Below, in pieces: positions 7,601 through 58,890 of a stretch of DNA of 64,000 bases. The first letter of the stretch is position 1. Each line of letters starts with the position of its first letter. This DNA comes from Trypanosoma brucei (lineage: Eukaryota), in NCBI GenBank assembly GCA_000002445.1, contig CP000070.1, forward strand, positions 224,001 to 288,000. The letters run 5' to 3'. The position numbers and the translations under genes were made by a program. A model generated the notes under the pieces. That model ran no database searches. It saw nothing but the letters and a program-made list of their open reading frames with translations, and was not told where the DNA came from.

Positions 7601-10600
7601 CTTGTGTTGTGCTGCTGCAAGGAGGTCGCGACTTCGTTCCGAAGCGTCCCAGTACCATACCTCAATGCCATACATGGTGTGTGCCTGTAAGAGGTAAAAG
7701 AACCGCAGAAGCTGGTGTGCTTAGCCCTGCGTGAAAGCAGATATTGCTCCTATTTGAAGTAGCTCAGGTCAATTTTTTCGTACTGTCTGTGCAGCGCGCC
7801 CTACCATTTCAGCTGTGGAATAGTATCATAAAGAGAAACTTTTCAAGTTCTTTCAAGTCCCGCCCACACTCCATCGGCGTTTGGCGTGAGCTGTATTCAT
7901 TTCACAGAATCAAAGGATGTGCTTTTCATCTGCGTTACGTAAACTTCCATTAGGTACTCTCAAGACAATGGTGCCACCATGTCCACTTACCTCCGCAGTG
8001 TGTGTTTGATTGTTTCCTTCTTCGTTTGAGGAAGCAGCAGCGTTAGGTTATGTGCCGCTGCTCGACGCTCAACTGCTTCGTTTCCTGTACTGAGCTCAGC
8101 ATGCCCCATTGCGCCGAAGGCTTTTCACCACTGACAAATACCACAACCATACACGATGTTGGTAAGGCGCGGCTAAGGAATCCTGTTTAGTTTGGAAACC
8201 ATTTTGCTGTGCATAAACTTTGTCCAGTCCCTAACTGTTGTGGTGCGAGCTGGGCTTCAGTTATTCTTTCCCTCAATCTTCATGGAGAGCTCGTGAATGC
8301 CACTAGTTCATTTGTATTTTAATATTTCTTCTTCTTACCATCTTTCTGGATATGTAGAGGAACTCCACACTTCCATGCTGTTGGTGCAATTCCTTTCTGT
8401 GCATTCATATTGAACTGTTAAAGCACCAGTATTGGCACTGTGTGATCGAAGTAACGCAGTCACTCTCCGTGCAAGCGATTGTGGGCCGTCACTGAGGTAT
8501 GAAGTGTTTATTTTAGCGATTTTTCGGGTCCATCACTCATTGTTGGTTGGAATTCGGCGGCCTCCGTTTGTCTCAGCGGCTTTGTGTCTGAGCTGCCATA
8601 TATATCTTCTTATGTGATGCACGTGCTGCAACAAAATGTCGGGCCTTCCGAAAATCTCTGATAGCAGCTTCACCTACTGTGAGTGCCGTAATCATTGGGT
8701 GCTTGGCGATCGCAGCGAATAAGCATTCCTGATGCGCCAGTTGCAGCGGTTCTGTACTTCGTCTTGTGTGGGCGGCACGAAACACTTACGGGTCGCGTAC
8801 GGTCCAGCTACTCTCCCACAATGATGTCCAGTTTCTTCCTATTCGACCAATGGCGACACCCCACGATCTTCCTATGAAGGCCAGTAAGCTAAGGCGTCAA
8901 GTGCTGTGGTGTGACTCTGCTCCCTTAGGGAACACCTTCGTCGGTTCCAAAACTTTCGGCGCAGATCAGGTGTTTTTCAAATTCGTCTCTTCATCATATT
9001 CTAACCACCCCACAGAGTCACCAGGCAGGACTGTGAAGTGTTCTCCATTTGGCTTTGATCCATGAGCCTGTGATAGTGCTTTGACGCTAAAGGTTCAGGA
9101 TATCCGTTTTGTTTCGGCAACCATGTTGAAGAACATATGGTGGTGGCGACCACCTGCCTACTACGATGATTTCGCATGTAACGGTCAATTCCTTGACAGT
9201 GGCATATAAGTGTTGCCCTTCCGTGCTGTCGCGTGTGCACGGTGTATTCGGTAGTATTACAGAACGGAAAATTGTTATTTATGCACCACTTTATAAGGGA
9301 CCAATGCCTGGTGTTCGGTGGGGGTTGCGTGATCTCACGCCAAGGCGCATGCATTAGAATTCGTGTCGACATGTTGCGGGCGCCGACCTGCTTTTTGCTC
9401 AAAGGTTGGATATGGTGAGCATACGACGTCGTAGCAGCGGCAATTGGCATCTTTCTAGTTGGTTGCATTCCGGAGTGCACATGCCCGGTGCATTCAATGA
9501 TGGTACCGGCCGCCTCTGCCATCAGATCTTCCCCAGCGAGTGTGTGTAAGTCGCCGCCGTCACGGTTGTAAGCTATGCTATGACGTTGGCGACCGGAAAT
9601 GCTAAAGTGCCCCGGGTTTCTTTTGTCGTCTTTGCTGTCCTCGGCTGACAGAAGACCATCTTTTCGTAATAGAGGTTTTTGCGGAGTATTGATTTCTTTC
9701 CTTTTGGAACTCTGCGCAGTTCCTCCGCTTTTCGCGTGAGGGTAGGCCTGAGTCGTCCTTCGAATCACAGGACGGCGGCACCTCACTCCGGAAAATATTC
9801 GTGACGGCGCGGTACCGCGTTCGCAGTGACTGGGAAGGAAGAAAAGCGGTGCTCTGGCGCGGCACGGCTGGTCCCTCTGCGTTGCCCTGGCATCTGTGGA
9901 CATTTGAAGACGGTGTTCTGTCGGTCCAGAGCCCTATCGGCTGGCGTCTGCCCCTGAAAATGCGAGGTAAGAGAGTGAGCGGCGCCGCGTTGGATGGGTA
10001 GGAGGGTCGCACCATGGAATTGATGTGTGTGATGGCCTTCCTGCCTTAGCCGATTCCAGTGGAGGTTCTCGGAGGTGATGAGTTTTTACTTTCGAACTGA
10101 CTACATGCCGCAGCATGGGCGTTCATCGACCGCTGGACTCTAGCAGCCGTGGGGCGTGCTGATTTCGGGAGGAGCAACAAGTGCCGAAGCCTCCCCGAAA
10201 CATCCTCAGTTCGGGTCGGACACGGCAGCTGCTCCCCGTTCCGGTTGAGGCGTTGCTGCGCTTTCGAATCGTCGGCGGTTAAGGGATTCTAGTCCCACGT
10301 GAAAGAGACCACTTGTCAATACGATCGCCGCCGGTTTCGGCTAACCATTCTGATTGTGCTTTGCAGTGCGTCACTTGCCACGCTACTGCTTCAGAGCGTG
10401 GCTGCTCCGGAAGGGTTTTTGGCGAGCCCCCTGGCGGTTGTTTTCACGCTGGCGTTAATCGGACATGATCCCCCGTTTGTTGTCTGATAACGGAGGTAGC
10501 GAAAGAGCATGTGGCGTCGTCACATGGGAATAAGGGGAGCGGCGCCAGGCATTTTGCTGTGCAAACCCCTCTTTGTTATACAGTTTGCTGTCTCCTTTCC

Positions 10601-11925
10601 CATTGGGGTGCTGATGAAGTGCCGAAGAATGATCTTGTGAGGTAGGGGCGACTTTACTAGTCGGGGGAGGCGTCTGCTCTATTACTCTGGAGGTGTAACG
10701 CGTAAGTTAGGTGGATGTTGGAGCGTATGCTGGTAGTATTTCAATGTGGTGCAAAATTTTTTGTTTTCCTCCAGCGAAGTTATAAGTGCTCCATGAGCGT
10801 GCGGGTTCTGGGGATGTAGGAATCTGTGTGAACGGATCGTGTTTGGATGGGAGTCGCACATTTTCTCTTCGAGAGAGTGTTGGGAGGTTTGCTCCTTTTA
10901 ATTCCCTTTGTCTGAACAGCAGGAGTTTTCTGATTCTTTGTGGCTGGCCTCTTTTGCTCATCAAGTGTTATTATTATTTTTTAAATTTCATCGCCTACGG
11001 TACGTGGACGGGGAGCTGTGCTGATATCACCGCGCTTCCGTGTTTCGCTTCGTACTTGTTTATTGTTTTGCCGTCTTATCACTCTACGAACCGTACCTCG
11101 TGGATGGTGAGCAGTCTTGTTAGCTGCTTCGTTGCCCGAGGTAAAAGGTACGCGCTGCTTTTGGGTCGAGGAAGTCCCTGCGTTAGGGTGATTCACTCAC
11201 GCTGTGTTGGTCGTGAAGATGCGCTTCCGCTGCATTTCTTGGGGCACACGTGTCTGGAAAAGAAATTCCCCCGACTCACTTGATCGTTTGGGCTCCGCTG
11301 TGGTATGTCGCAACACATAACCACGATTTATCCTTCATAAAATATCTTCGTGTCAAGGAATTGAACTCGAAAACACTAAAGGAGGTGCGGAAAATGCTAA
11401 TATACAGTGCTGTTCCGCTTCGTTTGCTCACGTGCTCGCGTGAAGCGGGCCCATATTGCATGCGTGCCAAAACATGGGTTAAGTTGTCGTGTGTTTCGTC
11501 CTTTCCTCTTATCTTGTGCCCTGTCCCACGCTGTGCGACCTTACATTGTGACTGTTGGTTGGATAAATTGGGTATCGTGATTAAAGGAGTGTACCACTCC
11601 TTTCGTAGGTTTACATATGGGCTACTCTTCGCTTTGATGCTGCCCTTTTTCGCTCTTACTGGGCGGTGATTCCCGTGCACTTAGCACCGAAACAATCGTA
11701 TTTCAACATTTGAGAACTAACTCATAAATATAGCTTTTTTGTCCAAGATCGGTCCTTTATTTTTTAATGTTATACAAACTGTTGATTTATTTAAAATATG
11801 AACGGTCATCCCAGTTATCAGAGCTTTTATGCTTGTGCTCGTTGTTAAATTCAGCTCCACCTTTGTTCCAGTCGCTGAAAGGGTATTTCACTCTTCTTAT
11901 TTTCCTCTTTTGGTTAGTAGTAGCG
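4656..11925. promoter_or_regulatory. Divergent strand-switch region between the minus-strand dynein unit and the plus-strand polycistron. Candidate bidirectional Pol II transcription-initiation zone.
   Basis: The minus-strand gene starts at 4655 and the first convincing plus-strand gene starts at 11926. There are no long, non-repetitive ORFs in between. In trypanosomatids, divergent strand-switch regions are the known polycistron start sites. Confidence 0.6.
6947..7675 (-). mobile_element. Degenerate non-LTR (ingi/L1Tc/DIRE-like) retrotransposon remnant. RT C-terminal 'thumb' plus the start of RNase H. The relic probably extends further on both sides through frameshifts.
   Basis: The 242-aa minus ORF begins MYGIEVWYWDASERSRDLLAAAQHKGSRIIAGIPHGTRKEDSLLEANLLPL. 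This matches the conserved non-LTR RT thumb signature YGsEtWtl...R..L.afEm.clRrIlGI.w.drvtNEevl..agl.pL. Its C-terminus, ...ELWADTSVSLGEKSGAAALLYRNNTLICAPKTGAGELSCSYRAECLALEIGLQRL, matches the RNase H N-terminal motifs (YTDGS... GAG... TNNRAELxAxxxAL). Flanking frames contain stops, so the element is frameshifted. Confidence 0.6.
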
Positions 11926-17676: not shown

Positions 17677-20268
17677 TTGTTTGCTTGTGCGGTAGAGGGG
17701 CGTGCGCTAAAGGACGGCATGACCAGAAATGCTGATGCACACTTTTCTGTTGGGACGGCTGCGAATCGGCAATTGAACGTGCCTGCGCCAAGTCATTTAG
17801 TGACGTGGAGTGCTGACAGCCTTGCACAGAACCAGCCGTCGATCCCCTCACTGGGGAACCTGAACCTTCGCAACCCCGGCATCTGGTCCAAGCGTGAGGA
17901 ATTGACCCCGAGGCGCCAGTCTCCGGTTGTTGCTGCTCGCATGGCCAGGATAGTGAGTAGCAGTAATATATCACCACGCTACACCACCTTTACGCAACGC
18001 TGGTCTCCCGTGTCGCCTCTGGATCTTTCACTCACACAGAGCTCACACCGTGCACAGACAGCGGGCGAGCGGGGGTTCGCATTTATTGCGCGTTATGGAG
18101 GTATTGCGAGGTCTCCGGCGCGCCAGGCGGCCTCTCGTTCGGGTCAGTCACCCGAACTGGAAACAAGTGTTGCAAGCCGCCAAACTTCTCAACACTCCTC
18201 GCTTCCAGTGGAGATGACACCGCGTGACCGATCTTTGAAGCGTCAAATTATAACTGAGCGGAAACTTCGCATCGTTCGACAGGAAAGTAGCACGCCTGGG
18301 GCAAGCAGTTCTAATTTGGCATGTTTGAGTGAGGCTAATGGGTCCAGAACGAGGCTTTTGTCTCAGGAACAGCTTAAAAAGCAGGGGAGCTCGATTCATC
18401 ATGGAGGGGAAACCGGTTTAACCGATAAATCTCCTGTTGCCGCACCGCTCACGGTGGAGCAACTCCTGAGGAAACCTCCTCAGAAGGCCAGTACGTCCGT
18501 GGGACGGCGCGTGCAGACTCCAGAGATTAGCATCTCATTGCGTGGATCGTTTTCTGCAGGAAACGACTCGTTGAGTAGCGCACATGTGGCAGAACTGAGC
18601 ACCACTACCGCTCGCGAGTTGCCTTCCGGTGGCGTTCCATGTGTGGCTCCTCATCGGATGTCAGACAAATCGATGTCTGCCTCCATTTCCTCCTGTGTCC
18701 ATCCGGTAATTGTGCAGCGCCGGCGTTGCAGCGACTGTACTACTAAACCTGCTCCGTCCGCAACAACATCACCTGGGACCATGACAGCGACGACCGCAGG
18801 CGCCACTCCCACTACCAGTAGCAACCGTAGCCAAAGCAGTGTGGAGACGGTGACGGACATTCCCAGTGTTGGTCAAGTGGCTGCACCCTACAATGGGCAG
18901 AAGTCTTCTTTTGTCTCCAGTCGGCTAGTTATGCAGCAGTTTGTACAGCGTTGGAGCAACCATTACGAAGAGAACAAAAAGGCCTATTTCGAGGGAGGAT
19001 ACATGTCAGTCGTACCGGGGAAGAAGCTGAACTCTCGGTATGTAATCGTGCAGAAGCTTGGCTGGGGTGAGTTCAGCACTGTGTGGCTTGCGTACGACAC
19101 TCTGCATACAACCCTTGGGAAACCACATCAGGCATTCGTTGCGGTGAAGATTGCCAAGTGCGACAGTGTTGTGTCCGAGAGCACCCAGTACGAGATCAAG
19201 CTGCTCCGCTATATTGGATCGAATACGCCATCACATGCTCCACTCACAGGTCTGTTGGATTCATTTGAAGTGGCTGGTCAGTATGGTTCGCACACGTGCA
19301 TGGTTATGCCCCTACATGGTTCAAATCTTTTGAGTATTATTGACCAGATGAAGGCCAAGAAGGGTATCCGGAGCCCCTCCGAGATATCCCTGATTAAGGA
19401 GATCGTTGTTTCAATCCTTATTGGCCTTGATGAACTCGATAAGCTAGATGTCATTCACACGGACATCAAACCCGAAAATATCCTTTGCTCATCGTCCGAC
19501 CCCAAGGTGCTTGATACAATTGAGAATTTCTGCCTCCGGAACAAGGATCGCTCGAGCATGGTGCCGGCTGACCGCGTGCGGAAGGCTATGTGGCAGGGGG
19601 ACCCAAATCACTTGGTTTGTATTGCTGATTTCGGTCTATCTGTTGCGCTTAAGCCGTCCAAGGGCCAGGCTGTGACCGGAAAGGGACAAAAGGATGTTGC
19701 TGCGAAGGCCGCTATTGAGAGTAAAAAGGAATTCCCCGTTGAAAAGGCTGGTACTGTGTCAAACGTACGCGGTACGATGATTCAAACGCGTGAGTACCGC
19801 GCCCCTGAGATCCTTATGGGGATGGATTTCAACACCCGCACCGATATTTGGAGTGTTGGTTGCATGGTGTATGAGCTAATTACGGGAGAGTTCCTCATGG
19901 ACCCGAAGCGTCGTACAAGGAATGAACGCATGATGGACGTGGAGCACCTTGCCATGATGATGCAAATACTTGGTCCTGTTCCTGAGAAGATAATCAAGCT
20001 TCGAGAGGGATGTGGTAACGGCAAACCCCCTCCTCGCTACATCCATCGCTACTTCGATGAAAACAATCGTTTCATATACAGCGATAAGTACAGACTTTAC
20101 CCGCGTCGTCACATTGACAGGGAGTTGCAGGCATATCTTCCTCCTGCAGAAGCGAAATCGGCAGCGGCCTTTATTGTGGGCTGCCTCGCTTCCTATGAAC
20201 CAACTTCTCGCCCGTCAGCTGGAGAGATGCTTAACCACACGTGGCTGTATGATGCCACCAACAACTGA
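17677..20268 (+). CDS. SRPK-like (serine/arginine protein kinase family) CMGC kinase with a ~440-aa Ser/Thr/Pro-rich N-terminal extension.
   Basis: Kinase subdomains: YVIVQKLGWGEFSTVWLAYD (compare SRPK LGWGHFSTVWL), VAVKIAK, HTDIKPENIL, IADFGLS, a spacer insert, then TREYRAPEILMG and DIWSVGCMVYEL. The N-terminal region is low complexity and rich in S/T/P/R. Confidence 0.8.
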   Translation: MFACAVEGRALKDGMTRNADAHFSVGTAANRQLNVPAPSHLVTWSADSLAQNQPSIPSLGNLNLRNPGIWSKREELTPRRQSPVVAARMARIVSSSNISPRYTTFTQRWSPVSPLDLSLTQSSHRAQTAGERGFAFIARYGGIARSPARQAASRSGQSPELETSVASRQTSQHSSLPVEMTPRDRSLKRQIITERKLRIVRQESSTPGASSSNLACLSEANGSRTRLLSQEQLKKQGSSIHHGGETGLTDKSPVAAPLTVEQLLRKPPQKASTSVGRRVQTPEISISLRGSFSAGNDSLSSAHVAELSTTTARELPSGGVPCVAPHRMSDKSMSASISSCVHPVIVQRRRCSDCTTKPAPSATTSPGTMTATTAGATPTTSSNRSQSSVETVTDIPSVGQVAAPYNGQKSSFVSSRLVMQQFVQRWSNHYEENKKAYFEGGYMSVVPGKKLNSRYVIVQKLGWGEFSTVWLAYDTLHTTLGKPHQAFVAVKIAKCDSVVSESTQYEIKLLRYIGSNTPSHAPLTGLLDSFEVAGQYGSHTCMVMPLHGSNLLSIIDQMKAKKGIRSPSEISLIKEIVVSILIGLDELDKLDVIHTDIKPENILCSSSDPKVLDTIENFCLRNKDRSSMVPADRVRKAMWQGDPNHLVCIADFGLSVALKPSKGQAVTGKGQKDVAAKAAIESKKEFPVEKAGTVSNVRGTMIQTREYRAPEILMGMDFNTRTDIWSVGCMVYELITGEFLMDPKRRTRNERMMDVEHLAMMMQILGPVPEKIIKLREGCGNGKPPPRYIHRYFDENNRFIYSDKYRLYPRRHIDRELQAYLPPAEAKSAAAFIVGCLASYEPTSRPSAGEMLNHTWLYDATNN

Positions 20269-22019
20269 GGTGAAAGTACTGGTTCCCTGAGAGCGATAGC
20301 AATACAATCACCCTTCTTCACAATTCCGCTGTGATCTATATTATTTGTTTGATGTATTGGTCATTTCGGCGGTCTTGAGGCTAGTATGGAAAAGGAAGCA
20401 CGGAGATACAGGTGTCTTGGTCGTTGCAACTGGTTTAGTGCACAGAGGAGGATGGAAAGATATAATTAAAGGGTGACCGCTGGCGGTTGCGAGTTGGTCG
20501 AGAAGAGTTACGACCTGATGAAAGTGACGATTTGGGAACGGTAGGAGTGAAGAGGAGGGCCGCCCACAAGGCCGTTATTTCCACTATGTAATAATTTTAA
20601 AATGGTGGGGAAAATAAGGCAAGAAGGAAAAAAAAAATAAGAATAAGAAAGGCACGTACAGTTGAAGATTTTGATTTGTTGCCCTAACTCGTTCCCGCTT
20701 GTTAGTGTAAACCTTCCCCTTCGCGCTAGACTAAAGGGTTAAAACCCTGAGGTGAAGGACTGAAGGCTCTCCTTGTATATGTATTGGTATACTAATTTGA
20801 GTTGTCAGCACATATACTTATATACTTGAATATATGCGCATGCACGTGTGCGTGTATGTGTGTGGGTTTACACGACTGCTAGGTGGGCGCGATGGAGATA
20901 TACTTATGTTATCATGTGTGCTGTGGATGTTCGTGTTTTCAAATACACGTTGATTTGTTTGTGTTTGTGCTTGCGTTTTTTTTATGCCCTTAAATTTCAT
21001 CTCTTCCGTTTTAATATGTGCGTTTGATATGAGTTAGTTGCTGTTCACGCAGGGGAGTACAGGGCTACAAAAGGCTCACTGATGAAGGTAGAGTGACCTT
21101 CCCTGTTCTTTTCGGGAAAACGTGTGAGAGAAATGCAAAGGAAGAAGAGAAAATGATAATGATTGTAATAACAAATTGGTGAGATAGAATAAAAAATTTA
21201 AGTGAAAATGAAGGAGTGTGGTGGATACAGTACGTTTGTGTTTGTGTGTAGTGGAGTTGTTTTGGAGTCGGTGTGCTGAAAGGAATGAGAGGTGGAAGCA
21301 ATAAAAGTGAGAGAAAAGTATGTTATACGGAGCGGAGAAGAGAGAGAAAGAAGGGGGGAGGGACGGGGGAATTCACTGAGGGGGCGCGTGTGATGCTGCA
21401 TCATTTCCAAAAAAGGGTTAAATGGTTCCGTGTATCAGCTTGGTTTCCCCTGAGGAGAAGCTGTGTTGTACTCCACAAAGTGGGTAGAACTATCACTATG
21501 CATTTTCAGATGGCTTTTAACACACACACGCATAGTTCTTTGAATGGGTTCGGCTGTTCATAACACGGTTGTGCAAATACTTGTTTATCCTTGCGCATGC
21601 ATACTCTGTTTCTATGGGTCCTCTTTTGTGCTTCAGTTTGCCTAACAATGCAGTTTACCCTTCTGCGTATTTGGGTGTGCGTGCGTCTTCTCTGGTGCCG
21701 TTACCCTCATTGTTTTCTGTATCGGTTGCACTTCATTTTTTGCATCCGTTCTCCCCTTGTTTTCCTTTCGCTTTTATGCCTTTTTTGTTTTGGGGGACCC
21801 CAGGTGTGCATGACGATGCGTTGTTCTTTTTTTCCCCCCCGTTAGTCATTCATTTCTCCCCGTTTTCGTTGATTTTTTCCCTATCTACAATGCACGTGTA
21901 CATATGTCTGCAGTGTGCGGTATCATGTATGACATGTTAACCAATGACGAGGTAAAGATTTGACGTCTGGGAACCAACACGCATCCCCTCTCACGCTCCC
22001 GTATTCGTCCCCCCTTTAC

Positions 22020-22080
22020 TTTCTGTGTTCTTTTTCTTTTCTTTTTTCTTTTCTTTTTTTCTTTTCTGTTTTTTTTTTTA
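22020..22080. repeat. T-rich (TTTTC/TTTCT)n polypyrimidine tract.
   Basis: ttctttttcttttcttttttcttttctttttttcttttctgttttttttttt. Confidence 0.8.
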
Positions 22081-22542
22081 CTAATAGTTTATCTAACTTC
22101 ACTTTCTGCCACGACCACTCCCCGTCTCTTCCCGCTTGTCACTGCAGGGGAGAGTCGAGGGGGTGTTGCGACGCTCGTTTGGGACGAAGCGATTATTCAC
22201 GTAATGTGCCTCTCCTCCCTTTTGTCACAACTGATCCCGTCGGCAAGAGTGGCTTTTTTTTAAAAAAAATTCCCCTTCTTTTTTTTTCCCATTCATTACT
22301 TCTTTTCCCTCATATTCTGTGTTTTTCTTCCCCCTTTCTTCGGTAACACAGTTTATATTGTTTTGTAAGGCACCAGGCGTAACGTACGTGCCGTTTAATA
22401 TGAGAAGATATATAGTAACAATAATAATGATGGTTTTCTGTTTCTTCTTTTTTTCATTTGTGAGCCGGAAAAAAAAACCTACTATCCCACCTGCAATTTT
22501 TTCCCCTTTATATTTATTAATATTGTTAGTATTCTTCTGACT

Positions 22543-22615
22543 ACCATTATTATTATTATTATTACTATCACTATCACTATTGATTTTATTGTTATTGTTA
22601 TTCTTGTCATTTGGA
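22543..22615. repeat. (ATT)n / (ATC)n trinucleotide microsatellite.
   Basis: accattattattattattattactatcactatcactattgattttattgttattgttatt. Confidence 0.8.
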
Positions 22616-25600
22616 TCATTTTGTCCCCTCCACCGCATATGCTTTTTTTTTTTATTGGATGTGTTGAGTGGAGGGCTGCGAAACTAATGATATGGCCTCT
22701 CATTTGACAAGTGATTTCATTCGTAGTGGAAAGAAGCGAACGAATAGACGCAACAAATTGAAAACGGGTAGGCGAAGGAAAGGATGTATTTTTTTTTTTA
22801 AAAAAAAAAATGGAGTTTTCTCGCCTTGTGAGAGTATATAGGATCAGAAAGAGAGAAAGAGAGGGCAAAAAAAAAAAAGAAAGAAAAGGTGGAAGAAGAA
22901 GGAGGCGTTACATCACGGAAAGGAAGTTAACATTGTTTTGCGCCATCCGTTTCAAAGCTTTACGTACCCGCATGTACATAATCGTAAATAGTCCGCGGAT
23001 AGCGGATGCGCGGACTTGCAGTTAGTAAGGGTTTGGGAGAAGAAGATGTTTAATGGGGTGTAAAGTTTTTGATGTATGTGTGTGTGGTTATTAATATGAG
23101 TATATGGTGAGAAGAATATGGAAAGGAAAAAGGGGTGTAACGGAGTTTGGGTTCGGTGGCTGTAATTGGCTTTGGGCGCCGTTACTCCTCATAGTTTGAA
23201 AGCATCCATTTTCTTTTCTTTTCTTTTTTTTCTTTTTTTTTTTTTTAAACAGTCTCTTCGGATTCTTGTTTGCCATGTATATGAGTTTTTATTCACTCCC
23301 CACCCACTACCTTTTTCCCTCCGCAACGTCCCCTGCAAACCTGTTTTTTTTCCCCTTAATCCTTCTATCTTACCTGTTGTTCCTTTTTTTTTTTGGTTCT
23401 GTTGGTTAACTTCCGGGTTATCCACCAGCATCACTTGCTCTCATCCTGTAATTATAGTTTTTCAGGGACAGCACCTCGCAATGTATCGAAAGAACAAAAA
23501 TGGCATGAACGATGGGTTTGTACTTTCAGTGTGGGGAAAGGGTGTGGGTGGGAGGAGTGTAGAAGGATTTATGAACTTGGGTCTTCTTTATAAATAAATA
23601 ATATATATATATATACAAATTTGAGCGGTGCCAGCAGTGATTTTTTTTTTTCTTTGGTGGTGAGGAGGGAGGATTTCGTACGCAGCGTCGCGTGTTGCCT
23701 CCTCCGTTTTGTTTCACCTTTTGAACTTGTTGTGCTGTTAGGTGACAGTGAGAGGAAACTTTTTATGTATGTAAAAGGAGGCTGTGCAAACCTGAAGATA
23801 TGTATGGTGAGTTAGGGATACATCAGAAGGAAAGTGAAAAATCAAGTAAAGAGGTAAATGAGTGCATGTGCGGGTCGATGGAAGGGAGGTGAAAAAAAAA
23901 AAAGGAGAGATAAACATACGTATGAGTGTACCACTGCTTCAAGAGGTGTGATTTCTCAACACAGAGGAAATTTACTTTCCTCCACCTCTTTTTTATTTTA
24001 TTTTGTTGTTCCCCAAAGAATTAGTGCAGGGTATCGCCCAGTTTTTGTTGCCTGTTTCACTGCTGCTTCCTCTCTTTTTTTTTTTTCTTTACTTCATTCG
24101 TTGTGTCGGTCTTAGCCTGCTTTCGTTCGTGCCTCGGTTAGAATCACTGGCTATAACTGTGTCTCCATTGTGAATGTTTTTTGTCTTCCCCCGCTTTATC
24201 CCTTTGTTTGAATCAAAGCTGCTTTCTTCTTCCCCTCATCATCCTTTCACCATCTTTTTTTTTCCCCCTTCTTCTTCTTCCGTTGAATGATTGCACGACC
24301 CCCTTTTACCTTTTTCGTGTATAGATAATTTCCACAACAACTTTACATAACCCCGCGCATAGCATCGGTTATAGCCTATTACAGGCTTTTTCAAGTGATG
24401 TAAGTTCTGCGAGAGGTGTGTGGGTTAAACAAGGTGTAAAATGTGGTTTCTTTAAACACCCAAATTGAGGTGCTGGAGTCCCCCACATCACCACTTTACC
24501 CACCGCTACTGTTTTTTTTTTTGCCTTTTGTTTTGTTTTGTTCAGGGATAAGGCATCATATGCAACGATTGAGAAGCAGTCAAGCTTGCTTATGGTCGGG
24601 GAGGACATTTTGTGTTACCTCTTGCATTTTTTCCCCCTCCCCCTCCCGTGACGTTACATGGTTGAAGGTGAGAGAAGCTGAAAACAACGGACGTGTTGTA
24701 AAGTGAAGTGAAGCGAAGTGGAGTGGAGTGCTGCGTGTATGACTGTGGGATAGTGAGCTGAAGTTGGGGTTGCACTTCAGTACTGCAGCGTGTTTCTCGG
24801 TTTCTCTTTCTATTTCTGTGTGTGTGTGATTGCATTTGTGTTTATACGTGTATGTGTGTAAACGAAAAAAGGTTACCTGGTAGGAGTTAAGGTGTGCGGT
24901 GAGGGGCTTCTCAACATTTTCGGTTTGACTGCTTCCCTTCAGTGGAGCGTAATATCGCCCTTCTATTATCCGCATCTTCCTCTTCAGTATTCTTGAAAGC
25001 CGTGTTGAGCGACATGTGCTGATGGGACACACGGATTTCAAAAAAAAAAAGAAGGGAATGGAGCGTGTATGTATGCATGAAAGTGTGAATGACGGAGGAT
25101 GCGTATCTTACCTGACTTTACTTGATAGCGGTAAGGGAGAGCAGTGGGAGAGCGAAATGAAGGAAAAATGTGGTTAAGTGCACGGAGCAAAAAAAAAAAA
25201 AAAAGAAGGGATATAAAGTCCGTCATTGTAGTGGTGAAGGTGGAAAGAGGTAATTACGGAAAGAAAAAGGAAAGGTGAGCAATGCTGTCGGAAGGGTGTC
25301 ACAAGCTGAAAGAAGGAAATCTATGACGTAATGCGGCTGTTGTGTTTTCAAATACAGAGTTGTGGTAGGTATTCATAGATCCCTTCCCTCCCTCTTTACA
25401 TATATAAATATATATTTTACGACGTGGTGTTCACTGCCTCCAGTTCCTCATTTTTTTTTCTTGTGTTGCTCGCTTTGCTTTTTTCCCCCTGTGGTTACAC
25501 GGTGTTGTTTTTCCATTCGTCCTGATTCCAACCTCTTCCCTCTCACGGTGCTTCGGCGTCGTTTTGATTTGATGCTTGTGGTTCATTGGTTTCCTTGCAG

Positions 25601-26705
25601 TTTTTTGCCATCTGGTTAGTTGGTTGGCTCCTTCCTCCTTGTTGATGAACTGTCCACTTGTTTCGCAGTGCGAGTTGGTGAAACGGCGTGTGCTGTTCTG
25701 AAAAGTGTGTGGTCCCGTCGCTGCACTGCCATCTCACTTATCAGTTTGTTGCGCAGACTATCGTCGGCTAATGCTCTTTTTTTTTTTTCCACCATTCCCT
25801 GTCGTTGCTTACCTTTTGTAATCTTTCAAAGTCGTGTGATTCATCCCTACCTTAATTCTGTTATTTACATAACGAATTTTGTGTTCATTTTCAGCGTTGG
25901 TACCATCATTCTCATTCCTTCAACTTCTCATGGTCCAACAGGTGTGCAGAATGTGTGTATCGGGAAGCGGATTTAGCGGTGTGAGAGAGAGAGGGCGTGT
26001 GACCACATTAAAGGGGTGACGGCATTGATGCAAAGCAAACGAGAAGAAAGAGGATGAAAGGCAAAAAAAAGAAAAAAGAAATAATAGTTGAAAAGGTGAG
26101 GTGGGTACATATCACTCGTCCCACTTACAGTCGCTAAAAAGGGGGAAAAGAAGCAGAAGAAATTGAATTCAATTTAGCATCCCGAGTTCTTGGGTGCGTT
26201 GTTGATGTGGTTGGAGGGGGGAAAGTGGAGGACAGAGCTTCGGTTATATTGTATACGTTTGTATATATACATATATTTATGCATATGCACACCTGTGCTT
26301 GTGGGAGATTGTACGTCAAATAAGACTTACATGGACGGAAGGAAAAAAAAAAGAAGAAAAGAAGTTAGCAAGAAAAGGGGAACAGGTGATTGAGATTGTC
26401 CGCCTTTTATATTTTCTTCAGGACCTCTACTCCGCAGGAGTGATCTTTCCCCATACCATTATTCTTCACGTCGCACCACACTTATTGAAAATTTGGGTTA
26501 CTGGCAATAGCTTTTCGTGATCACAGTAGATTATTTTGTCTTATGCGATTAAGAGAACAACCGCATCTGTACTTTACGCTTTACTCCTTCTACCTCACTT
26601 GATTTATGTCTGAATTTTTTGTTCCCCCAGTAGCAACACCGATATAAGGGGGGCCTCTGCATTGAGAGCTAAATCGTAAGGACTAAGGGTTACTGTGCGG
26701 CTGAT

Positions 26706-26740
26706 CGCGCACACGCGCACATACACACACACACACACTG

Positions 26741-26774
<34 letters not shown>

Positions 26775-26778
26775 TACA
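26706..26778. repeat. (CA)n followed by (TA)n microsatellite immediately upstream of the NMD3 start codon.
   Basis: cgcgcacacgcgcacatacacacacacacactgacacacacacatatatatatatatatatatatat. Confidence 0.85.
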
Positions 26779-28407
26779 ATGGATCTCGATGACGAGTTCA
26801 TTACAAACCGCAGTGAGGCCACCATTCCAAAGGTCCTCTGCTGCGTGTGTGGGCTCCTCATTGACAGTAACCCGAGCAACATGTGTAGCAGCTGCCTACG
26901 CTCTCACGTTGATATCACAGAGTCTGTGCAAAAAGAATATATAATTGTGTATTGTCCCGAGTGCAGCCGCTATTTGCAACCCCCACAATACTGGACTCGA
27001 GCGGATCTAGAAAGCCGTGAGCTCCTTACCATCTGCCTCAAGCGTGTGAAAGGTCTCAGTCGAAACGTTTTCAAACTTGTTGACGCCAAATTTATATGGA
27101 CGGAACCACATTCCAAGCGCCTGAAAGTAAAATTGGTGCTTCAGAAGGAGGTGATGAGCAATATCGTGATTCAGCAAGCGTGCGTTATTGAGTATGTTGT
27201 CGTGTGGCAACAGTGTCCAACCTGTCAGAAGGTGGCTACCGGGCAGCCTCAGTGGGACGCTTGCGTTCAGCTGCGGCAGAAAGTTGCGCATAAGAAGACG
27301 TTTCTTTATCTTGAACAACTCATTCTGAAGCACAAGTTACAGGAAAATTTCATTCGAGTCGAGGCACAGCCCGATGGATTGGACTTCTTTTTTGCACACA
27401 AAAGTCACGCCTTGAACTTTTTGGAGTTTGTCAGTCGCAATAGTCCTGTCACGCGCCGCGATGCCGTACAGCTAGTCTCACACGATAGCAAGAACAATAC
27501 CGCGGTTCAGCATCATACCTTTTCTCTCGAAATTGCTCCCTTGTGCCGTGAGGATCTTGTACTGCTACCTTACCAAAGTTACTACCTGAAGCTTGGCGGA
27601 CTTGGACCTCTCGTGCTTGTCCACAAGGTTTACAGCAGTGTTGTCCTTGTCGATCCTCGGACGCTGCGGGCCAATGAGTTCACAGGGACGTATTATTGGA
27701 AGAAGCCCTTTCTTCCTCTCATGAACTCTCGCGAAATGACGGAATTTTACGTGCTACAGTGTACACCAACTGGTGTAACGAATGGTCGCTATCACTTAGG
27801 TGTTATTACCGTCTGTCTTTCCAGTGAAGTCGGCTACGGACGCGAATGGATCGTCACATCCCACTTGGGTGGGCTTCTGCAGCCGGGTGACCTTGCAATG
27901 GGTTACTTACTGGAAGGCAGAACCTTCAACCATGAGGAATGGGAAAACAACAAGTATAAGCAAGACCAGTTGCAAGAGGTGGTGCTTGTGAGGAAGCACT
28001 TTCCGGCGCAACGCGCTCGTCGCCACAGGCGGAACTGGAAGTTAAAGCGGTTGGATGTTATGGATCCTTCTTGTGCTGAACGCAACGCAAGGCGGCAGGA
28101 AGAACAGGAGGAGGAGCGGCTTGAGTTTGAGGACGAACTGGAGCGAGATGTGGAACTTCGCCGTGATGTACCCATCTATAAGATGCTTGATAGTGAATTA
28201 GCTGAGCGGGTGGTAAAGAAAAATGAAGGAAAAGGAAATGCCAACCCTGAGAATGAGTGTGATGACGACGCGGACGAGGCGCCGCAGATAGCATTGGAGG
28301 AGATGTTGGACGAACTTAGGCTTAGTGACGATGATGAGACCGCTGCTGCCGACGATGAAGAGGCATCCGTCGAAAACGCCAGAAAAAAGAAACGGCCTGA
28401 GGTGTAA
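26779..28407 (+). CDS. NMD3: 60S ribosomal subunit export adaptor NMD3.
   Basis: MDLDDEFITNRSEATIPKVLCCVCGLLIDSNPSNMCSSCLRSHVDITESVQKEYIIVYCPECSRYLQPPQYWTRADLESRELLTICLKRVKGL is the N-terminal four-Cys-cluster zinc-binding domain typical of NMD3, followed by a conserved middle region and an acidic C-terminal tail. The track ORF starts 28 codons earlier inside the CA/TA microsatellite. The ATG at 26779 is preferred. Confidence 0.85.
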   Translation: MDLDDEFITNRSEATIPKVLCCVCGLLIDSNPSNMCSSCLRSHVDITESVQKEYIIVYCPECSRYLQPPQYWTRADLESRELLTICLKRVKGLSRNVFKLVDAKFIWTEPHSKRLKVKLVLQKEVMSNIVIQQACVIEYVVVWQQCPTCQKVATGQPQWDACVQLRQKVAHKKTFLYLEQLILKHKLQENFIRVEAQPDGLDFFFAHKSHALNFLEFVSRNSPVTRRDAVQLVSHDSKNNTAVQHHTFSLEIAPLCREDLVLLPYQSYYLKLGGLGPLVLVHKVYSSVVLVDPRTLRANEFTGTYYWKKPFLPLMNSREMTEFYVLQCTPTGVTNGRYHLGVITVCLSSEVGYGREWIVTSHLGGLLQPGDLAMGYLLEGRTFNHEEWENNKYKQDQLQEVVLVRKHFPAQRARRHRRNWKLKRLDVMDPSCAERNARRQEEQEEERLEFEDELERDVELRRDVPIYKMLDSELAERVVKKNEGKGNANPENECDDDADEAPQIALEEMLDELRLSDDDETAAADDEEASVENARKKKRPEV

Positions 28408-31682: not shown

Positions 31683-33176
31683 TCTGTTGTGGTTTAGTGA
31701 CGCCTGTTGTTATTGTTCTATTTTTTTAAAATCACAAATTATCTTTATTTCAGTTGACTGTGTGTCTCTCTCTCTCCCTTTTTTTTGGGGGGGCTCTTCA
31801 CATATTTTGCGCCTTTCGGTTTCACTTTATTTATTTATTTTTTGTCTCAATATTTGGTTACCACGTCTTTTTTTCTTCCTTTTTACAAGGATGGACGATT
31901 TGTTCTTTTTCTCTTTGGTTCTTACTGACTTTGACGTAATCAGTCTTCTTCTTTTGAAGCTTTTTATTTCACCTTATTGCTGTCTAGTTTTATGTTAGTT
32001 CGTTCTTTACCTCTTGTTCTTAGTCTTCTATTTTCACTTCGCTAATTCCATCTGGTCCTCGATCTATGGGGAGTTGACAGACATTCGAATTGTTTTGCAG
32101 GTGTCTGACTGTTTGTGTGGAAGGGGAAGAAGGTTTCAAGGATTGCCTTGTTAGTTAATCATTTTGATTTTTTTCCGTATCGGGATTTAAAGGGGGGTTC
32201 CATTGACCACGTTGTCGATTCTGTGGTTTTGGGGCAATTAGCACGTGAGCTCTTGTTTATATCCCTTTCTTGAGTGCTGATTAATGCCTCGAGGAGTCAC
32301 CGCACGTCCTCAGTGAGGTGCGTTGATGCCATGAGGTTGACAGTTATTTCATAGCGGATCGACTTGCGGTTGACTCAGCGTAGAAAATCTTTTTTTCTCG
32401 AATGTACGGGAAAGGGGCCATCTTCCGGGGTATCCGTGTGTCGGCCTTTGATATCAACGGAGGGGCTGAACTTATTTAACTCCTTGTTGTGGCTCCACCC
32501 GAGGTTGCTTCCCAAAACGAGACTGGGGTTAACGCCGGTTACTTAGTTTGTCGAAAGCTCTTTCCACTGTTGTTTGACGTGGGTGGTGCTTTCATTTTTT
32601 TTATCCTTTGCGATGATTTAAATCAGATACGTGCATGTGTGTGCAATTCTGTATGCCGGTGGTGTAGGGAGTGGGAATGTATCTGCAAGTTCAAAGGCTA
32701 TGTTGTCGCTGTTTGTGTGTGTGTGTGTGGTGAAGGGTGGGGAAAGTGTAGTTGTTTACGAGTTGTGTGAGTGAATTCTGTCCTATGAAACACATTAGTG
32801 TGCCGATATTTGGGCCTCATGCGCTTGTTTTCTTAATATTGTTTCCAACTCCGCTCCTGACCCCTACCTTGTTTGTCAATTTCACAATGGCGTGCTTGCT
32901 GTTAAAAGTATAGCTCGCGGTGTGCTGAGGGAGGTGTAGCGTCGCTAAAACAGTTTCTGAGGTAAGAAAGAGGGGAGACACACGCATAAATATCAATACA
33001 CACAGGGCAACAATATACGGCTGCCGTTACAGCAAGAGGTCAAGGACAAAAACAAATAGCGTAAAAAAGGAAGGGTGTGGTGTTTTTTCCCCCTCCAGTG
33101 TATCTGTCAGCCCTCCACGCTGCGGTAGGGTGAAAGTGGTTCATACTCACAAAAAAAAGAGGGGGAAGTATAATAA

Positions 33177-58844: not shown

Positions 58845-58849
58845 ATGTC

Positions 58850-58884: not shown

Positions 58885-58890
<6 letters not shown>

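What the first reader, a model, noticed from the sequence alone, without database searches (positions are those of the whole stretch)
20269..26778. A 6.5 kb gene desert inside a polycistron, made of low-complexity DNA
Intergenic spacers elsewhere in this unit are 0.2-1.5 kb. Here 6.5 kb separates the kinase stop from the NMD3 start, with no credible ORF. The sequence is a mosaic of poly-T/polypyrimidine tracts, (TTTTC)n, (ATT)n, (TG)n, (TA)n, poly-A runs and G-rich blocks. It must still be transcribed as part of the polycistron. It could be an exceptionally long UTR, a fully decayed gene or array, or a source of non-coding RNA. Weak C-box-like TGATGA motifs occur (for example at ~21079), but I could not pair them convincingly with D boxes.
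Basis: seen in the sequence. Interest (0 to 1): 0.5.

Follow-up and report, generated by a model that had tools for sequence, protein, structure and literature searches.

The report
Long kinase 3'UTR spacer in trypanosome
The 6.5 kb "gene desert" is real, but it is most likely the very long, low-complexity 3' untranslated region of a Trypanosoma brucei protein-kinase mRNA, a known feature of regulator genes in this parasite, and not a lost gene or a hidden small-RNA cluster.

Summary
The window is T. brucei TREU927 chromosome 7 (chromosome coordinate = window + 224,000). Positions 20269-26778 lie between the stop codon of SRPK1 (Tb927.7.960) and the ATG of NMD3 (Tb927.7.970). The stretch has no credible ORF and is rich in homopolymers and microsatellites.

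Tests for a hidden gene were negative:
- No Pfam domain in 129 six-frame pieces.
- No Rfam family, tRNA or C/D-box pair.
- No internal or dispersed repeats.
- No structured RNA.
- No sequence conservation outside T. brucei.
- It diverges between subspecies at the rate of other spacers in the window.

In nine other trypanosomatids (seven genera) where both genes were called, the kinase and NMD3 are direct neighbours with nothing annotated between them. In Trypanosoma this spacer is the longest local one, so no gene was lost here.

The sequence is five purine-block to pyrimidine-block modules. Its internal polypyrimidine tracts (up to 52 nt) are longer than the longest tract upstream of any start codon in the window.

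Published work shows that T. brucei kinase and RNA-binding-protein mRNAs often carry multi-kb, tract-rich 3'UTRs, and that DRBD18 masks their internal processing signals. SRPK1 mRNA rises 2.8-fold when DRBD18 is depleted.

Best reading: a roughly 6 kb SRPK1 3'UTR with cryptic alternative processing sites. This is ordinary for the organism. I could not access RNA mapping for this locus.

The parts
17719..20268 (+). CDS of the CMGC/SRPK protein kinase SRPK1 (Tb927.7.960), 849 aa. The gap follows its stop codon.
   Evidence: Pkinase domain, E 2e-30. 100% identical to the T. brucei equiperdum protein P0121. Gene identity and RNAi phenotype from PMC5522463. Chromosome offset.
20269..26778 (+). The 6,510-bp inter-CDS spacer (chr7 244,269-250,778). 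Non-coding. Inferred to be mostly SRPK1 3'UTR.
   Evidence: No ORF longer than 153 aa. No Pfam, Rfam or tRNA match. Substitution rate 11.8-12.3 per kb against 3.5-6.8 in the flanking CDSs.
20369..21468 (+). Module 1, purine-rich part: R blocks at about 20369-20668 and 21069-21468, including GA/G-rich tracts at 21334-21371. Predicted proximal poly(A) zone at about 21.4-21.6 kb.
   Evidence: Purine fraction 0.64-0.72 in 200-nt windows. R tracts listed. The poly(A) position is an inference from the trypanosome processing rule.
21569..22668 (+). Module 1, pyrimidine-rich block. It holds the strongest tract (22028-22079, 52 nt, 85% T; first AG ends at 22087), further tracts at 21749-21769, 22270-22290, 22322-22341 and 22434-22455, and (ATT)n at 22514-22602.
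   Evidence: This tract is longer than the longest pyrimidine tract upstream of any start codon in the window (median 14 nt, maximum 33 nt).
22669..23168 (+). Module 2, purine block. Includes T11A11 at 22789-22810, a 60-nt GA tract at 22846-22905 and A12 at 22867-22878.
23169..23394 (+). Module 2, pyrimidine block. Tract 23209-23246 (38 nt, 89% T; AG ends at 23252) and tract 23380-23394.
23769..23968 (+). Module 3, purine block. R tracts at 23825-23841 and 23880-23910, with A12 at 23892-23903.
23969..24316 (+). Module 3, pyrimidine block. Tracts 23975-23994, 24066-24090, 24177-24205, 24253-24281 and 24299-24316. The first AG after each ends at 24018, 24115, 24218 or 24324.
24969..25368 (+). 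Module 4, purine block. A11 at 25040-25050 and A16 at 25189-25204. These genomic A runs can prime oligo-dT and mimic poly(A) sites in RNA-seq.
25369..25868 (+). Module 4, pyrimidine block. Tracts 25380-25397, 25444-25462 and 25774-25790. The first AG after each ends at 25443, 25600 or 25831.
25869..26368 (+). Module 5, purine block. R tracts 26041-26081, 26136-26162, 26213-26232 and 26337-26364. The predicted distal SRPK1 poly(A) zone (about 26.3-26.56 kb) starts at the block's 3' end and extends downstream of it.
   Evidence: The poly(A) zone is inferred.
26573..26630 (+). Predicted NMD3 trans-splice acceptor: a pyrimidine-rich stretch ending in TTTTTTGTTCCCCC (26615-26628), followed by AG at 26629-26630.
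   Evidence: Sequence read directly. It implies a 148-nt 5'UTR, close to the published T. brucei median of 128 nt (PMC2936537). Not confirmed by spliced-leader mapping.
26631..26778 (+). Predicted NMD3 5'UTR, containing (CA)n(TA)n at 26706-26774, which varies in length between subspecies.
26779..28407 (+). CDS of NMD3 (Tb927.7.970), 542 aa.
   Evidence: NMD3, SH3 and OB domains. 100% identical to the T. b. gambiense protein. Gene identity from PMC3326296 and PMC4482084.

Best explanation
The stretch is the spacer between the SRPK1 kinase gene (Tb927.7.960) and NMD3 (Tb927.7.970) on T. brucei chromosome 7. It contains no gene.

Most likely about 6.0-6.3 kb of it is transcribed as the 3' untranslated region of the SRPK1 mRNA. 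The last 150 nt or so would be the NMD3 5'UTR, after a predicted splice acceptor AG at 26629-26630.

The low-complexity mosaic is organised as five purine-block to pyrimidine-block modules. Each resembles a trypanosome processing region: poly(A) addition in an A-rich zone, then a polypyrimidine tract, then an AG acceptor.

Inferred mechanism: RNA-binding proteins such as DRBD18 coat the internal polypyrimidine tracts. Trans-splicing and the coupled polyadenylation then skip them, producing a long, poorly expressed mRNA of about 9 kb that carries many regulatory elements. When masking is relieved (DRBD18 depletion, possibly stumpy forms), proximal sites are used. That would give shorter, more abundant SRPK1 mRNAs, plus spliced-leader-capped polyadenylated RNAs derived from the 3'UTR as by-products.

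Shown here: the absence of any gene, the modular composition, the strength of the internal tracts, the synteny, and the published DRBD18 sensitivity of SRPK1 mRNA abundance. Inferred: the transcript boundaries and the use of alternative sites at this locus.
For: 1. Identity. Five published poly(A) sites fit the offset window + 224,000 on Tb927_07_v4. The flanking genes are Tb927.7.960 (SRPK1) and Tb927.7.970 (NMD3).

2. No gene.
- ORFs.
- Pfam on 10 ORFs and on 129 six-frame pieces. The best per-sequence E-value was 0.0045 among 129 queries, which is chance level.
- None of the 10 gap ORFs tested is in the 15-billion-protein collection.
- Rfam and tRNA scans found nothing.
- 0 C/D pairs against 0.35 expected.
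- No repeats.
- The one strong fold-scan window was not confirmed: z = -1.4 with 200 shuffles.

3. Synteny. The kinase is directly followed by NMD3 in T. b. gambiense, T. melophagium (3,537 bp), T. rangeli (3,349), T. theileri (5,034, including 720 N), T. cruzi, L. donovani (3,258), Novymonas (1,943), Leptomonas (2,679) and Angomonas. None has a gene between them. In each of the four Trypanosoma loci with a usable length (T. b. gambiense, T. melophagium, T. rangeli, T. theileri) this is the longest local spacer, by threefold or more in the three non-brucei species.

4. Modular composition. The SD of purine fraction is 0.134 against 0.038 +/- 0.004 in shuffles. There are 24 pyrimidine tracts of 15 nt or more. 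The longest are 52 and 38 nt, against a median of 14 and a maximum of 33 for the longest tract upstream of the 16 start codons in the window.

5. Literature.
- T. brucei 3'UTRs have a median of 400-500 nt, but some exceed 5 kb. The longest are in RNA-binding-protein and protein-kinase mRNAs (PMC8982893; PMC6597758).
- DRBD18 binds long, tract-rich 3'UTRs and prevents internal splicing and polyadenylation (PMC9380746). It promotes distal poly(A) sites in more than 1,500 transcripts. Its depletion raises kinase, RNA-binding-protein and stumpy-specific mRNAs (PMC11260167).
- Tb927.7.960 has logFC +1.50 (FDR 4e-10) in procyclic DRBD18 RNAi (PMC12592628 Table S5) and is 2.44-fold up in stumpy forms (PMC5879877).
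- ZC3H28 prefers long mRNAs with low-complexity 3'UTRs (PMC10090614).

6. No separate transcript called here. Kolev 2010's list of novel transcripts jumps from chr7 57 kb to 264 kb. [quoted passage not shown] The portion of the nanopore novel-lncRNA list that was shown has nothing between chr7 34 kb and 479 kb.
Against: - No RNA-seq, spliced-leader or poly(A)-site data for this locus could be read, so the UTR boundaries are predictions.
- Kolev 2010 determined 3'UTRs for only 1,902 genes, and Tb927.7.960 is not among the poly(A) entries I could see. The absence of called novel transcripts is therefore weak negative evidence.
- The internal pyrimidine tracts are so strong that constitutive internal processing is plausible.
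- The sequence shows no purifying selection beyond other spacers and no conservation across species. Any regulatory function therefore rests on composition and length, not on specific conserved elements.
- The DRBD18 effect is on abundance only. A shift in poly(A) site at this gene was not seen by me.
Confidence: 0.7

Rival explanations
1. The gap holds one or more independent lncRNA genes. The internal polypyrimidine tracts would be used constitutively as trans-splice acceptors. SRPK1 would then have a short 3'UTR of about 1.2-1.7 kb, and the remaining 4-5 kb would be released as several spliced-leader-capped, polyadenylated non-coding RNAs of about 1 kb, some of which might act in trans as grumpy does. 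This is not fully exclusive of the best explanation, because such RNAs can be both UTR parts and separate species.
For: - Internal tracts of 52 and 38 nt with an AG within 5-10 nt exceed the longest tract upstream of any start codon in the window.
- There are five R-to-Y modules spaced about 1-1.3 kb apart.
- 1,428 mostly intergenic lncRNAs with normal splice and poly(A) motifs are annotated in T. brucei (PMC9200285).
- Many of them are embedded in 3'UTRs and can be processed either way (PMC12592628).
- Kolev 2010 described 394 genes with UTR-internal transcripts.
Against: - Kolev 2010 called no novel transcript in chr7 244-251 kb and did not list Tb927.7.960 among alternatively processed genes.
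- The portion of the nanopore novel-lncRNA list that was shown has none here.
- There is no conservation and no structure signal.
- Tb927.7.960 does not appear as a neighbour of a regulated lncRNA in the parts of PMC12592628's supplementary tables that are held as text.
Confidence: 0.2
2. It is a neutrally expanded spacer. The length would be a by-product of microsatellite and homopolymer slippage and relaxed selection, with no regulatory role beyond carrying the signals needed to process the two flanking genes.
For: - Substitutions between T. brucei subspecies run at 11.8-12.3 per kb, like other spacers (8-11) and 2-3 times the CDS rate. There are also 3.9 indel events per kb, concentrated in repeats.
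- No sequence conservation with any other species.
- Length varies widely between species, from about 1.1 kb or less to 6.5 kb.
- Assemblies break here in T. cruzi and T. theileri.
Against: - The spacer after this kinase is the longest local spacer in each Trypanosoma locus with a usable length, and among the longest in Leishmaniinae, even though its sequence is not conserved.
- Kinase mRNAs as a class have long 3'UTRs.
- SRPK1 mRNA is regulated by stage and by DRBD18.
- Dissection of the RBP10 3'UTR found many dispersed regulatory segments without conserved short motifs.
Confidence: 0.2
3. It is the remains of a gene or gene array that has decayed beyond recognition.
For: Its size would fit 2-4 genes. 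The T. b. gambiense annotation calls three small ORFs in it, of 113, 106 and 122 aa.
Against: - In none of the other trypanosomatids where kinase and NMD3 were both called is there a gene between them.
- No Pfam remnant, including reverse transcriptase, VSG, ESAG or RHS families.
- No tblastn or blastn similarity between the spacers of different species.
- No tandem or dispersed repeats.
- The 10 window ORFs tested are absent from the protein collection, and their translations are low-complexity.
Confidence: 0.03
4. It hosts snoRNA or other small structured RNA genes that are processed out of the polycistronic precursor.
For: TGATGA motifs occur at 20516, 21080 and 25643. snoRNAs can sit inside T. 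brucei lncRNAs and 3'UTRs (snoGRUMPY in PMC9200285; Kolev 2010, supplementary Figure S7, legend listed).
Against: - 0 Rfam matches at gathering score in the whole window, and only chance-level miRNA-type matches on microsatellites in the sensitive scan.
- 0 C-box...D-box pairs on either strand against 0.35 expected.
- No tandem cluster structure.
- No window with a significant folding z-score after re-testing.
Confidence: 0.03
5. It is an internal boundary of a transcription unit, where Pol II terminates and re-initiates. Such boundaries tend to lie in wide gene-free regions.
For: Internal initiation sites exist in T. brucei polycistrons (Kolev 2010). The gap contains GT-rich and G-run stretches.
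Against: - A divergent strand-switch region, the expected start site of this unit, lies only about 8.5 kb upstream at 9904-11766.
- There is no tRNA gene.
- G runs are only mildly enriched, 8 against 3.9 expected.
- Kolev's Table S14 and histone-variant maps could not be read, so this was not tested directly.
Confidence: 0.04

Closest known systems
Multi-kb regulatory 3'UTRs of T. brucei regulator mRNAs: RBP10 (about 7.3 kb), DRBD12 (mRNA about 8.4 kb), ZC3H20/21/22 (over 4-5 kb)
   Same: - It lies directly after the CDS of a regulatory protein, here a kinase.
- It is several kb long and full of polypyrimidine tracts and low-complexity sequence.
- It has no conserved short motifs.
- The host mRNA's abundance changes on DRBD18 depletion and between life-cycle stages.
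   Different: - The transcript boundaries of SRPK1 were not seen by me.
- Only one RBP10-type UA(U)6 motif is present, which is chance level.
- No reporter dissection exists for this UTR.
- SRPK1 changed significantly in procyclic DRBD18 RNAi but is absent from the bloodstream-form table.
lncRNAs embedded in 3'UTRs, and 3'UTR-derived spliced-leader/poly(A) RNAs of T. brucei (for example KS17gene_1750a/1751a after RBP10 and KS17gene_6446a after Tb927.8.1300; Kolev 2010 'UTR-internal transcripts')
   Same: The signals needed are present several times inside the gap: a strong polypyrimidine tract followed by an AG, with an A-rich block upstream. This class is produced when masking proteins such as DRBD18 or DRBD3 are depleted.
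   Different: No such transcript is documented here in the lists I could read. Whether the Guegan 2022 annotation has an entry in chr7 244-251 kb is unknown.
grumpy lncRNA, host of the C/D snoRNA snoGRUMPY
   Same: It is intergenic, lies on the sense strand of a polycistron, and sits next to a regulator gene.
   Different: No C/D box pair, no Rfam snoRNA match and no structured element were found in the gap. It therefore lacks the feature that gives grumpy its known mechanism.
Ordinary T. brucei inter-CDS processing regions (poly(A) site, then polypyrimidine tract, then AG acceptor)
   Same: Each of the five R-to-Y modules has the composition of one such region. The last module is the predicted true NMD3 acceptor.
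   Different: Here four extra modules are not followed by any ORF. Their tracts (20-52 nt) are longer than the median of 14 nt for the longest tract upstream of the start codons in the same polycistron.

Membership tests
Long regulatory 3'UTR of a T. brucei regulator mRNA (RBP10/DRBD12/ZC3H22 type) | Lies immediately downstream of a protein-coding CDS on the transcribed strand, with no other gene before the next CDS | tested here: met
   Kinase stop at 20268, NMD3 ATG at 26779, same strand. No ORF, Pfam, Rfam or tRNA match between them.
Long regulatory 3'UTR of a T. brucei regulator mRNA (RBP10/DRBD12/ZC3H22 type) | The host gene encodes an RNA-binding protein or a protein kinase | tested here: met
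   Pkinase domain. The gene is Tb927.7.960, CMGC/SRPK1. The class statement is in PMC6597758 and PMC8982893.
Long regulatory 3'UTR of a T. brucei regulator mRNA (RBP10/DRBD12/ZC3H22 type) | Continuous mRNA from the CDS to a distal poly(A) site several kb downstream (RNA-seq or Northern blot) | not testable with these tools
   No RNA data are available here. Indirect evidence only: Kolev 2010 called no separate transcript in the gap, and the nanopore novel-lncRNA list as shown has none there.
Long regulatory 3'UTR of a T. brucei regulator mRNA (RBP10/DRBD12/ZC3H22 type) | Rich in polypyrimidine tracts and low-complexity sequence | tested here: met
   24 pyrimidine tracts of 15 nt or more (3.7 per kb against 2.1 per kb in the other spacers). 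Homopolymers and microsatellites are far above shuffles.
Long regulatory 3'UTR of a T. brucei regulator mRNA (RBP10/DRBD12/ZC3H22 type) | mRNA abundance or 3'-end choice depends on DRBD18 | tested here: inconclusive
   Abundance: logFC +1.50, FDR 4e-10, in procyclic DRBD18 RNAi (PMC12592628 Table S5).
Independent spliced-leader/poly(A) lncRNA gene (Guegan 2022 class) | Own trans-splice acceptor and poly(A) site, with full-length reads from spliced leader to poly(A) | not testable with these tools
   Sequence signals are present. No RNA evidence was found in the accessible lists. The Guegan tables are not held.
Independent spliced-leader/poly(A) lncRNA gene (Guegan 2022 class) | Low coding potential | tested here: met
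   Longest ATG ORF is 137 aa and low-complexity. No Pfam match, and absent from the protein collection.
C/D box snoRNA gene or cluster | C box (RUGAUGA) and D box (CUGA) 50-125 nt apart, with a terminal stem | tested here: not met
   0 pairs on either strand against 0.35 expected in shuffles.
C/D box snoRNA gene or cluster | Match to a curated snoRNA family, or a tandemly reiterated cluster as in trypanosomatids | tested here: not met
   Rfam gave 0 matches at gathering score, and none of the 9 weak matches in the sensitive scan reached even a third of its family's gathering score; the one snoRNA-class match (SCARNA7, 18 bits against 65) lies on the (CA)n(TA)n repeat. No repeat units.
Pseudogene or decayed gene | An intact homologue at the syntenic position in related species | tested here: not met
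   Kinase and NMD3 are adjacent in 9 other trypanosomatids, with no gene called between them. T. congolense and T. vivax loci were not obtainable.
Pseudogene or decayed gene | Residual protein-level similarity to a known family | tested here: not met
   Pfam on 129 six-frame pieces gave a best E-value of 0.0045, about 0.6 expected by chance. tblastn against the relatives' spacers found nothing below E 0.004.
Retroposon remnant (ingi/RIME/SIDER-like) | Reverse transcriptase or endonuclease remnants, or dispersed copies | tested here: inconclusive
   No Pfam reverse-transcriptase match and no copy elsewhere in the 64 kb window. Non-coding retroposon consensus sequences and the whole genome were not available to search.

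The most novel reading that the evidence does not exclude
The five purine-to-pyrimidine modules form a graded 'ladder' of alternative polyadenylation and trans-splicing sites. The parasite would use it to set SRPK1 dosage during the slender-to-stumpy-to-procyclic transitions. One or more of the roughly 1 kb spliced-leader-capped RNAs released from the 3'UTR would have a function of its own as a lncRNA in differentiation or stress survival.
Probability: 0.12. Interest if true: 0.45.

Novelty: already known. Interest (0 to 1): 0.2.

Why it matters
If the reading is right, this adds nothing new in kind. It is one more example of the multi-kb, tract-rich 3'UTRs that T. brucei uses for kinase and RNA-binding-protein genes, in a reference genome whose RNA-seq tracks are public.

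Three points have modest value:
- SRPK1 is needed for survival in the mouse and for serum and complement resistance (PMC5522463), so its post-transcriptional control is of some biological interest.
- The locus is a clean case for studying how very strong internal polypyrimidine tracts are ignored by the splicing machinery. The tracts here are longer than the longest one upstream of any start codon in the same polycistron.
- The comparison shows that the position and length of the long spacer persist across Trypanosoma while its sequence does not. That is relevant to the debate over whether long 3'UTRs act through composition and length or through specific motifs.

Tried and rejected
**Sequence scans that found nothing**
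- Rfam at gathering threshold on the 64 kb window, and a sensitive scan of the gap. The only matches were chance-level miRNA, SCARNA7 or lncRNA hits, several of them on (TG)n/(TA)n/(CA)n repeats.
- tRNA scan: none.
- De novo C/D-box scan: no pairs.
- Sliding-window folding. One window (22969-23088) gave z = -5.9 with 25 shuffles. An overlapping 121-nt window (22940-23060) re-tested with 200 shuffles gave z = -1.4. It is just an 8-bp GC hairpin. An earlier version of the scan timed out.
- Pfam on the 10 longest ORFs and on all 129 stop-to-stop pieces of 33 aa or more: chance-level only.
- Exact look-up of 10 gap ORFs among 15 billion proteins: none present.
- blastn and tblastn of the gap against the equivalent spacers of 7 species: only low-complexity residue.
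- Internal and dispersed repeats: only microsatellites.
- Motif census. RBP10 UA(U)6, PUF9 and the DRBD3 nonamer are not enriched. AAGAA, UGUA and (AUU)n are enriched, but that is expected from the block composition.

**Literature look-ups that failed**
- The supplements of Guegan 2022, Siegel 2010, Bard 2024 and Bishola Tshitenge 2022 are not held.
- Kolev's splice-site and poly(A)-site tables are truncated before chromosome 7.

**Other dead ends and corrections**
- The exact NMD3 look-up from the window failed, but it worked through the identical protein P0001.
- T. congolense and T. vivax orthologues have no contigs in the collection. The closest informative outgroups are therefore missing.
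- T. cruzi's apparently short spacer (1,116 bp) was rejected as evidence because 716 of its bases are N.

Full report
**What the window is.** The NMD3 protein encoded at 26779-28407 is 100% identical to that of T. brucei gambiense. The kinase at 17719-20268 is 100% identical to that of T. b. equiperdum. Five poly(A) sites published for the TREU927 reference fit a single offset, chromosome 7 coordinate = window coordinate + 224,000:
- Tb927.7.930: stop at 13158, plus a 523-nt 3'UTR.
- Tb927.7.940: stop at 15264, plus 21 nt.
- Tb927.7.1010: stop at 39038, plus 38 nt.
- Tb927.7.1040: stop at 44677, plus 118 nt.
- Tb927.7.1050: stop at 45401, plus 80 nt.

These come from Kolev et al. 2010, PMC2936537, Table S13. 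The gap is therefore chr7 244,269-250,778. It lies between Tb927.7.960 (CMGC/SRPK1; PMC5522463) and Tb927.7.970 (NMD3; PMC3326296).

**Check of the observation.** The kinase ends with TGA at 20266-20268, and NMD3 begins with ATG at 26779. No ORF in between exceeds 153 aa, or 137 aa from ATG, and the translations are low-complexity strings.

Two corrections apply. First, only about 15% of the bases are in strict pyrimidine or purine tracts, and the remainder is unique non-coding sequence. Second, the polycistron has another long spacer of the same make-up, 3.0 kb at 58374-61384.

**Is anything hidden in it?** I found nothing.
- Rfam found nothing at gathering score in the whole window, and only chance-level matches, several of them on microsatellites, in the sensitive scan.
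- There is no tRNA.
- A C/D-box scan found no C...D pair on either strand, against 0.35 expected. TGATGA at 21080 is one of three occurrences, which is a chance number.
- One window from the folding scan looked strong, but an overlapping 121-nt window (22940-23060) re-tested with 200 shuffles gave z = -1.4.
- Pfam searches of the ten longest ORFs and of all 129 six-frame pieces gave only chance-level scores. There was no reverse transcriptase, VSG, ESAG or RHS remnant.
- None of the 10 gap ORFs tested exists in a collection of 15 billion proteins.
- There are no repeat units within the gap and no copies elsewhere in the window.

**Synteny.** Nine other trypanosomatids have the kinase immediately followed by NMD3, with no gene called between them:

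| Species | Spacer (bp) | Note |
|---|---|---|
| T. b. gambiense | 6,471 | |
| T. theileri | 5,034 | includes 720 N |
| T. melophagium | 3,537 | |
| T. rangeli | 3,349 | |
| T. cruzi | 1,116 | 716 bases are N, so the length is unreliable |
| L. donovani | 3,258 | |
| Leptomonas pyrrhocoris | 2,679 | |
| Novymonas | 1,943 | |
| Angomonas | at most about 1,100 | |

In T. b. equiperdum, NMD3 was not called and its CDS carries a 1-nt indel.

In T. theileri, T. melophagium and T. rangeli this is the longest local spacer by threefold or more, and it is also the longest in T. b. gambiense. In Phytomonas the gene called upstream of NMD3 has no kinase domain.

The spacer sequences share nothing detectable at nucleotide or translated level. 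Between T. brucei subspecies the gap accumulates 11.8-12.3 substitutions and 3.9 indel events per kb. Neighbouring spacers run at 8-11 substitutions per kb, which is 2-3 times faster than the flanking CDSs.

So no gene was lost here. The long spacer is positionally persistent in Trypanosoma, but its sequence is free to drift.

**Anatomy.** Purine content swings between about 0.25 and 0.72 in 200-nt windows. The SD is 0.134 against 0.038 +/- 0.004 in shuffles, and T. melophagium and T. rangeli show the same property.

This defines five purine-block to pyrimidine-block modules. The + strand carries 24 pyrimidine tracts of 15 nt or more. The longest are 52 nt (22028-22079) and 38 nt (23209-23246), each followed by an AG within 5-10 nt.

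For comparison, the longest pyrimidine tract within 400 nt upstream of the 16 start codons in the window has a median of 14 nt and a maximum of 33 nt.

The fifth module ends in the predicted NMD3 acceptor: TTTTTTGTTCCCCC followed by AG at 26629-26630. That gives a 148-nt 5'UTR, close to the published median of 128 nt.

**Mechanism.** In trypanosomes a polypyrimidine tract directs trans-splicing at a downstream AG and, coupled to it, polyadenylation of the upstream RNA (PMC9380746). Each module therefore looks like a processing region with no gene behind it.

Published work explains how such UTRs exist:
- T. brucei 3'UTRs have a median of 400-500 nt, but some exceed 5 kb. The longest belong to RNA-binding-protein and protein-kinase mRNAs (PMC8982893; PMC6597758).
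- DRBD18 binds long, tract-rich 3'UTRs and prevents use of the internal signals. Its depletion yields shortened mRNAs plus spliced-leader-capped, polyadenylated RNAs derived from the 3'UTR.
- In procyclic forms DRBD18 promotes distal poly(A) sites on more than 1,500 transcripts. Its loss raises kinase, RNA-binding-protein and stumpy-form mRNAs (PMC11260167).
- ZC3H28 prefers long mRNAs with low-complexity 3'UTRs (PMC10090614).

Locus-specific evidence fits this picture. Tb927.7.960 is up 2.8-fold (logFC 1.50, FDR 4e-10) in procyclic DRBD18 RNAi. That figure is from the re-analysis in PMC12592628, Table S5. The hit lies in part 11 of the supplementary file, and that table spans parts 9-13. The mRNA is also 2.44-fold higher in stumpy than in slender forms (PMC5879877).

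Kolev et al. listed no novel transcript between chr7 57 kb and 264 kb, and did not list Tb927.7.960 among alternatively processed genes. The portion of the nanopore novel-lncRNA list that I could see has none between chr7 34 kb and 479 kb.

I therefore read the gap as an SRPK1 3'UTR of about 6.0-6.3 kb, with four cryptic proximal processing modules that are normally masked.

**What is not shown.** I could not read any spliced-leader, poly(A) or coverage data for this locus. Kolev et al. defined 3'UTRs for only 1,902 genes. The Guegan 2022 lncRNA table is not held.

A rough estimate from my own arithmetic gives an even chance or better that at least one annotated lncRNA lies in the gap. It assumes 1,428 lncRNAs over roughly 11 Mb of non-coding DNA. 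Many such annotations are parts of longer 3'UTRs, so that would not contradict the main reading.

**Comparison and verdict.** The closest known things are the RBP10, DRBD12 and ZC3H22 3'UTRs and the lncRNAs embedded in them. The defining features I could test are met: position, host-gene class, composition and DRBD18-dependent abundance. The decisive one, a continuous long mRNA, is not testable with these tools.

Membership in the snoRNA and pseudogene families was tested and not met, and the retroposon test was inconclusive because only coding remnants and the 64 kb window could be searched. This is a known kind of feature in a well-studied reference genome.

The most novel reading still open is a regulated ladder of alternative 3' ends whose released RNAs act on their own. 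I put that at about 12%.

Noticed in passing
window 58374-61384: A second long spacer (3.0 kb, GC 0.35) lies downstream of the SNF2/RING helicase CDS (53535-58373). It has the same low-complexity, purine/pyrimidine-block make-up, and its longest ORFs are 93 and 103 aa. It is probably another long 3'UTR.
   Followed up: partly
window 31683-33176 (expected position); L002 16062-17693, L007 19098-20573, L003 19408-21249: A gene with an Mcp5_PH domain sits between the large hypothetical gene and the DnaJ gene in T. melophagium, T. cruzi, L. donovani, Novymonas and Angomonas. It also follows the large hypothetical gene in T. rangeli, where the locus ends before the DnaJ gene. It is absent from the whole T. 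brucei window: tblastn with three orthologues found nothing. It has been lost or relocated in T. brucei.
   Followed up: partly
window 26706-26774: A (CA)n(TA)n microsatellite lies directly upstream of the NMD3 start codon, inside the predicted 5'UTR. Its length differs between T. brucei subspecies, with 22-26 gapped columns in the alignment.
   Followed up: partly
L007 12626-13741; L008 12806-17839; L010: The T. cruzi and T. theileri assemblies have scaffold gaps (716 and 720 N) inside the equivalent spacer, so its length there is unreliable. In the T. b. equiperdum assembly, NMD3 is not called, and its CDS carries a 1-nt indel.
   Followed up: yes
L001 4877-5218, 6515-6835, 7055-7423: The T. 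b. gambiense annotation calls three small ORFs (113, 106 and 122 aa, no Pfam) inside the gap. The roughly corresponding TREU927 ORFs tested are not in the protein collection, and they translate pyrimidine-rich blocks. They are almost certainly spurious.
   Followed up: partly
window 40480-41103 and 52785-53376: Kolev 2010's novel transcripts Tb7.NT.4 and Tb7.NT.5 fall in two ordinary spacers of this window. Their method therefore did detect small intergenic transcripts nearby, while calling none in the 6.5 kb gap.
   Followed up: no
window 38523-39038 and 44228-44677: Two small genes are missed by a 200-aa ORF cut-off: 171 aa (Tb927.7.1010) and 149 aa (Tb927.7.1040). Published poly(A) sites 38 and 118 nt after their stop codons confirm them. 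The second overlaps the mechanical start of ORF 44580-45401, whose true start must lie further downstream.
   Followed up: partly
window 9904-11766: There is a divergent strand-switch region. ORFs upstream are on the - strand (9001-9903, 6947-7675), and all large ORFs from 11767 onward are on the + strand. It is the likely transcription start of the polycistron that contains the gap.
   Followed up: no
window 22789-22810 and 22990-23017: A T11A11 junction and an 8-bp GC-rich hairpin (AGUCCGCG...CGCGGACU) are present. The hairpin region is not significantly more stable than shuffles, at z = -1.4.
   Followed up: yes
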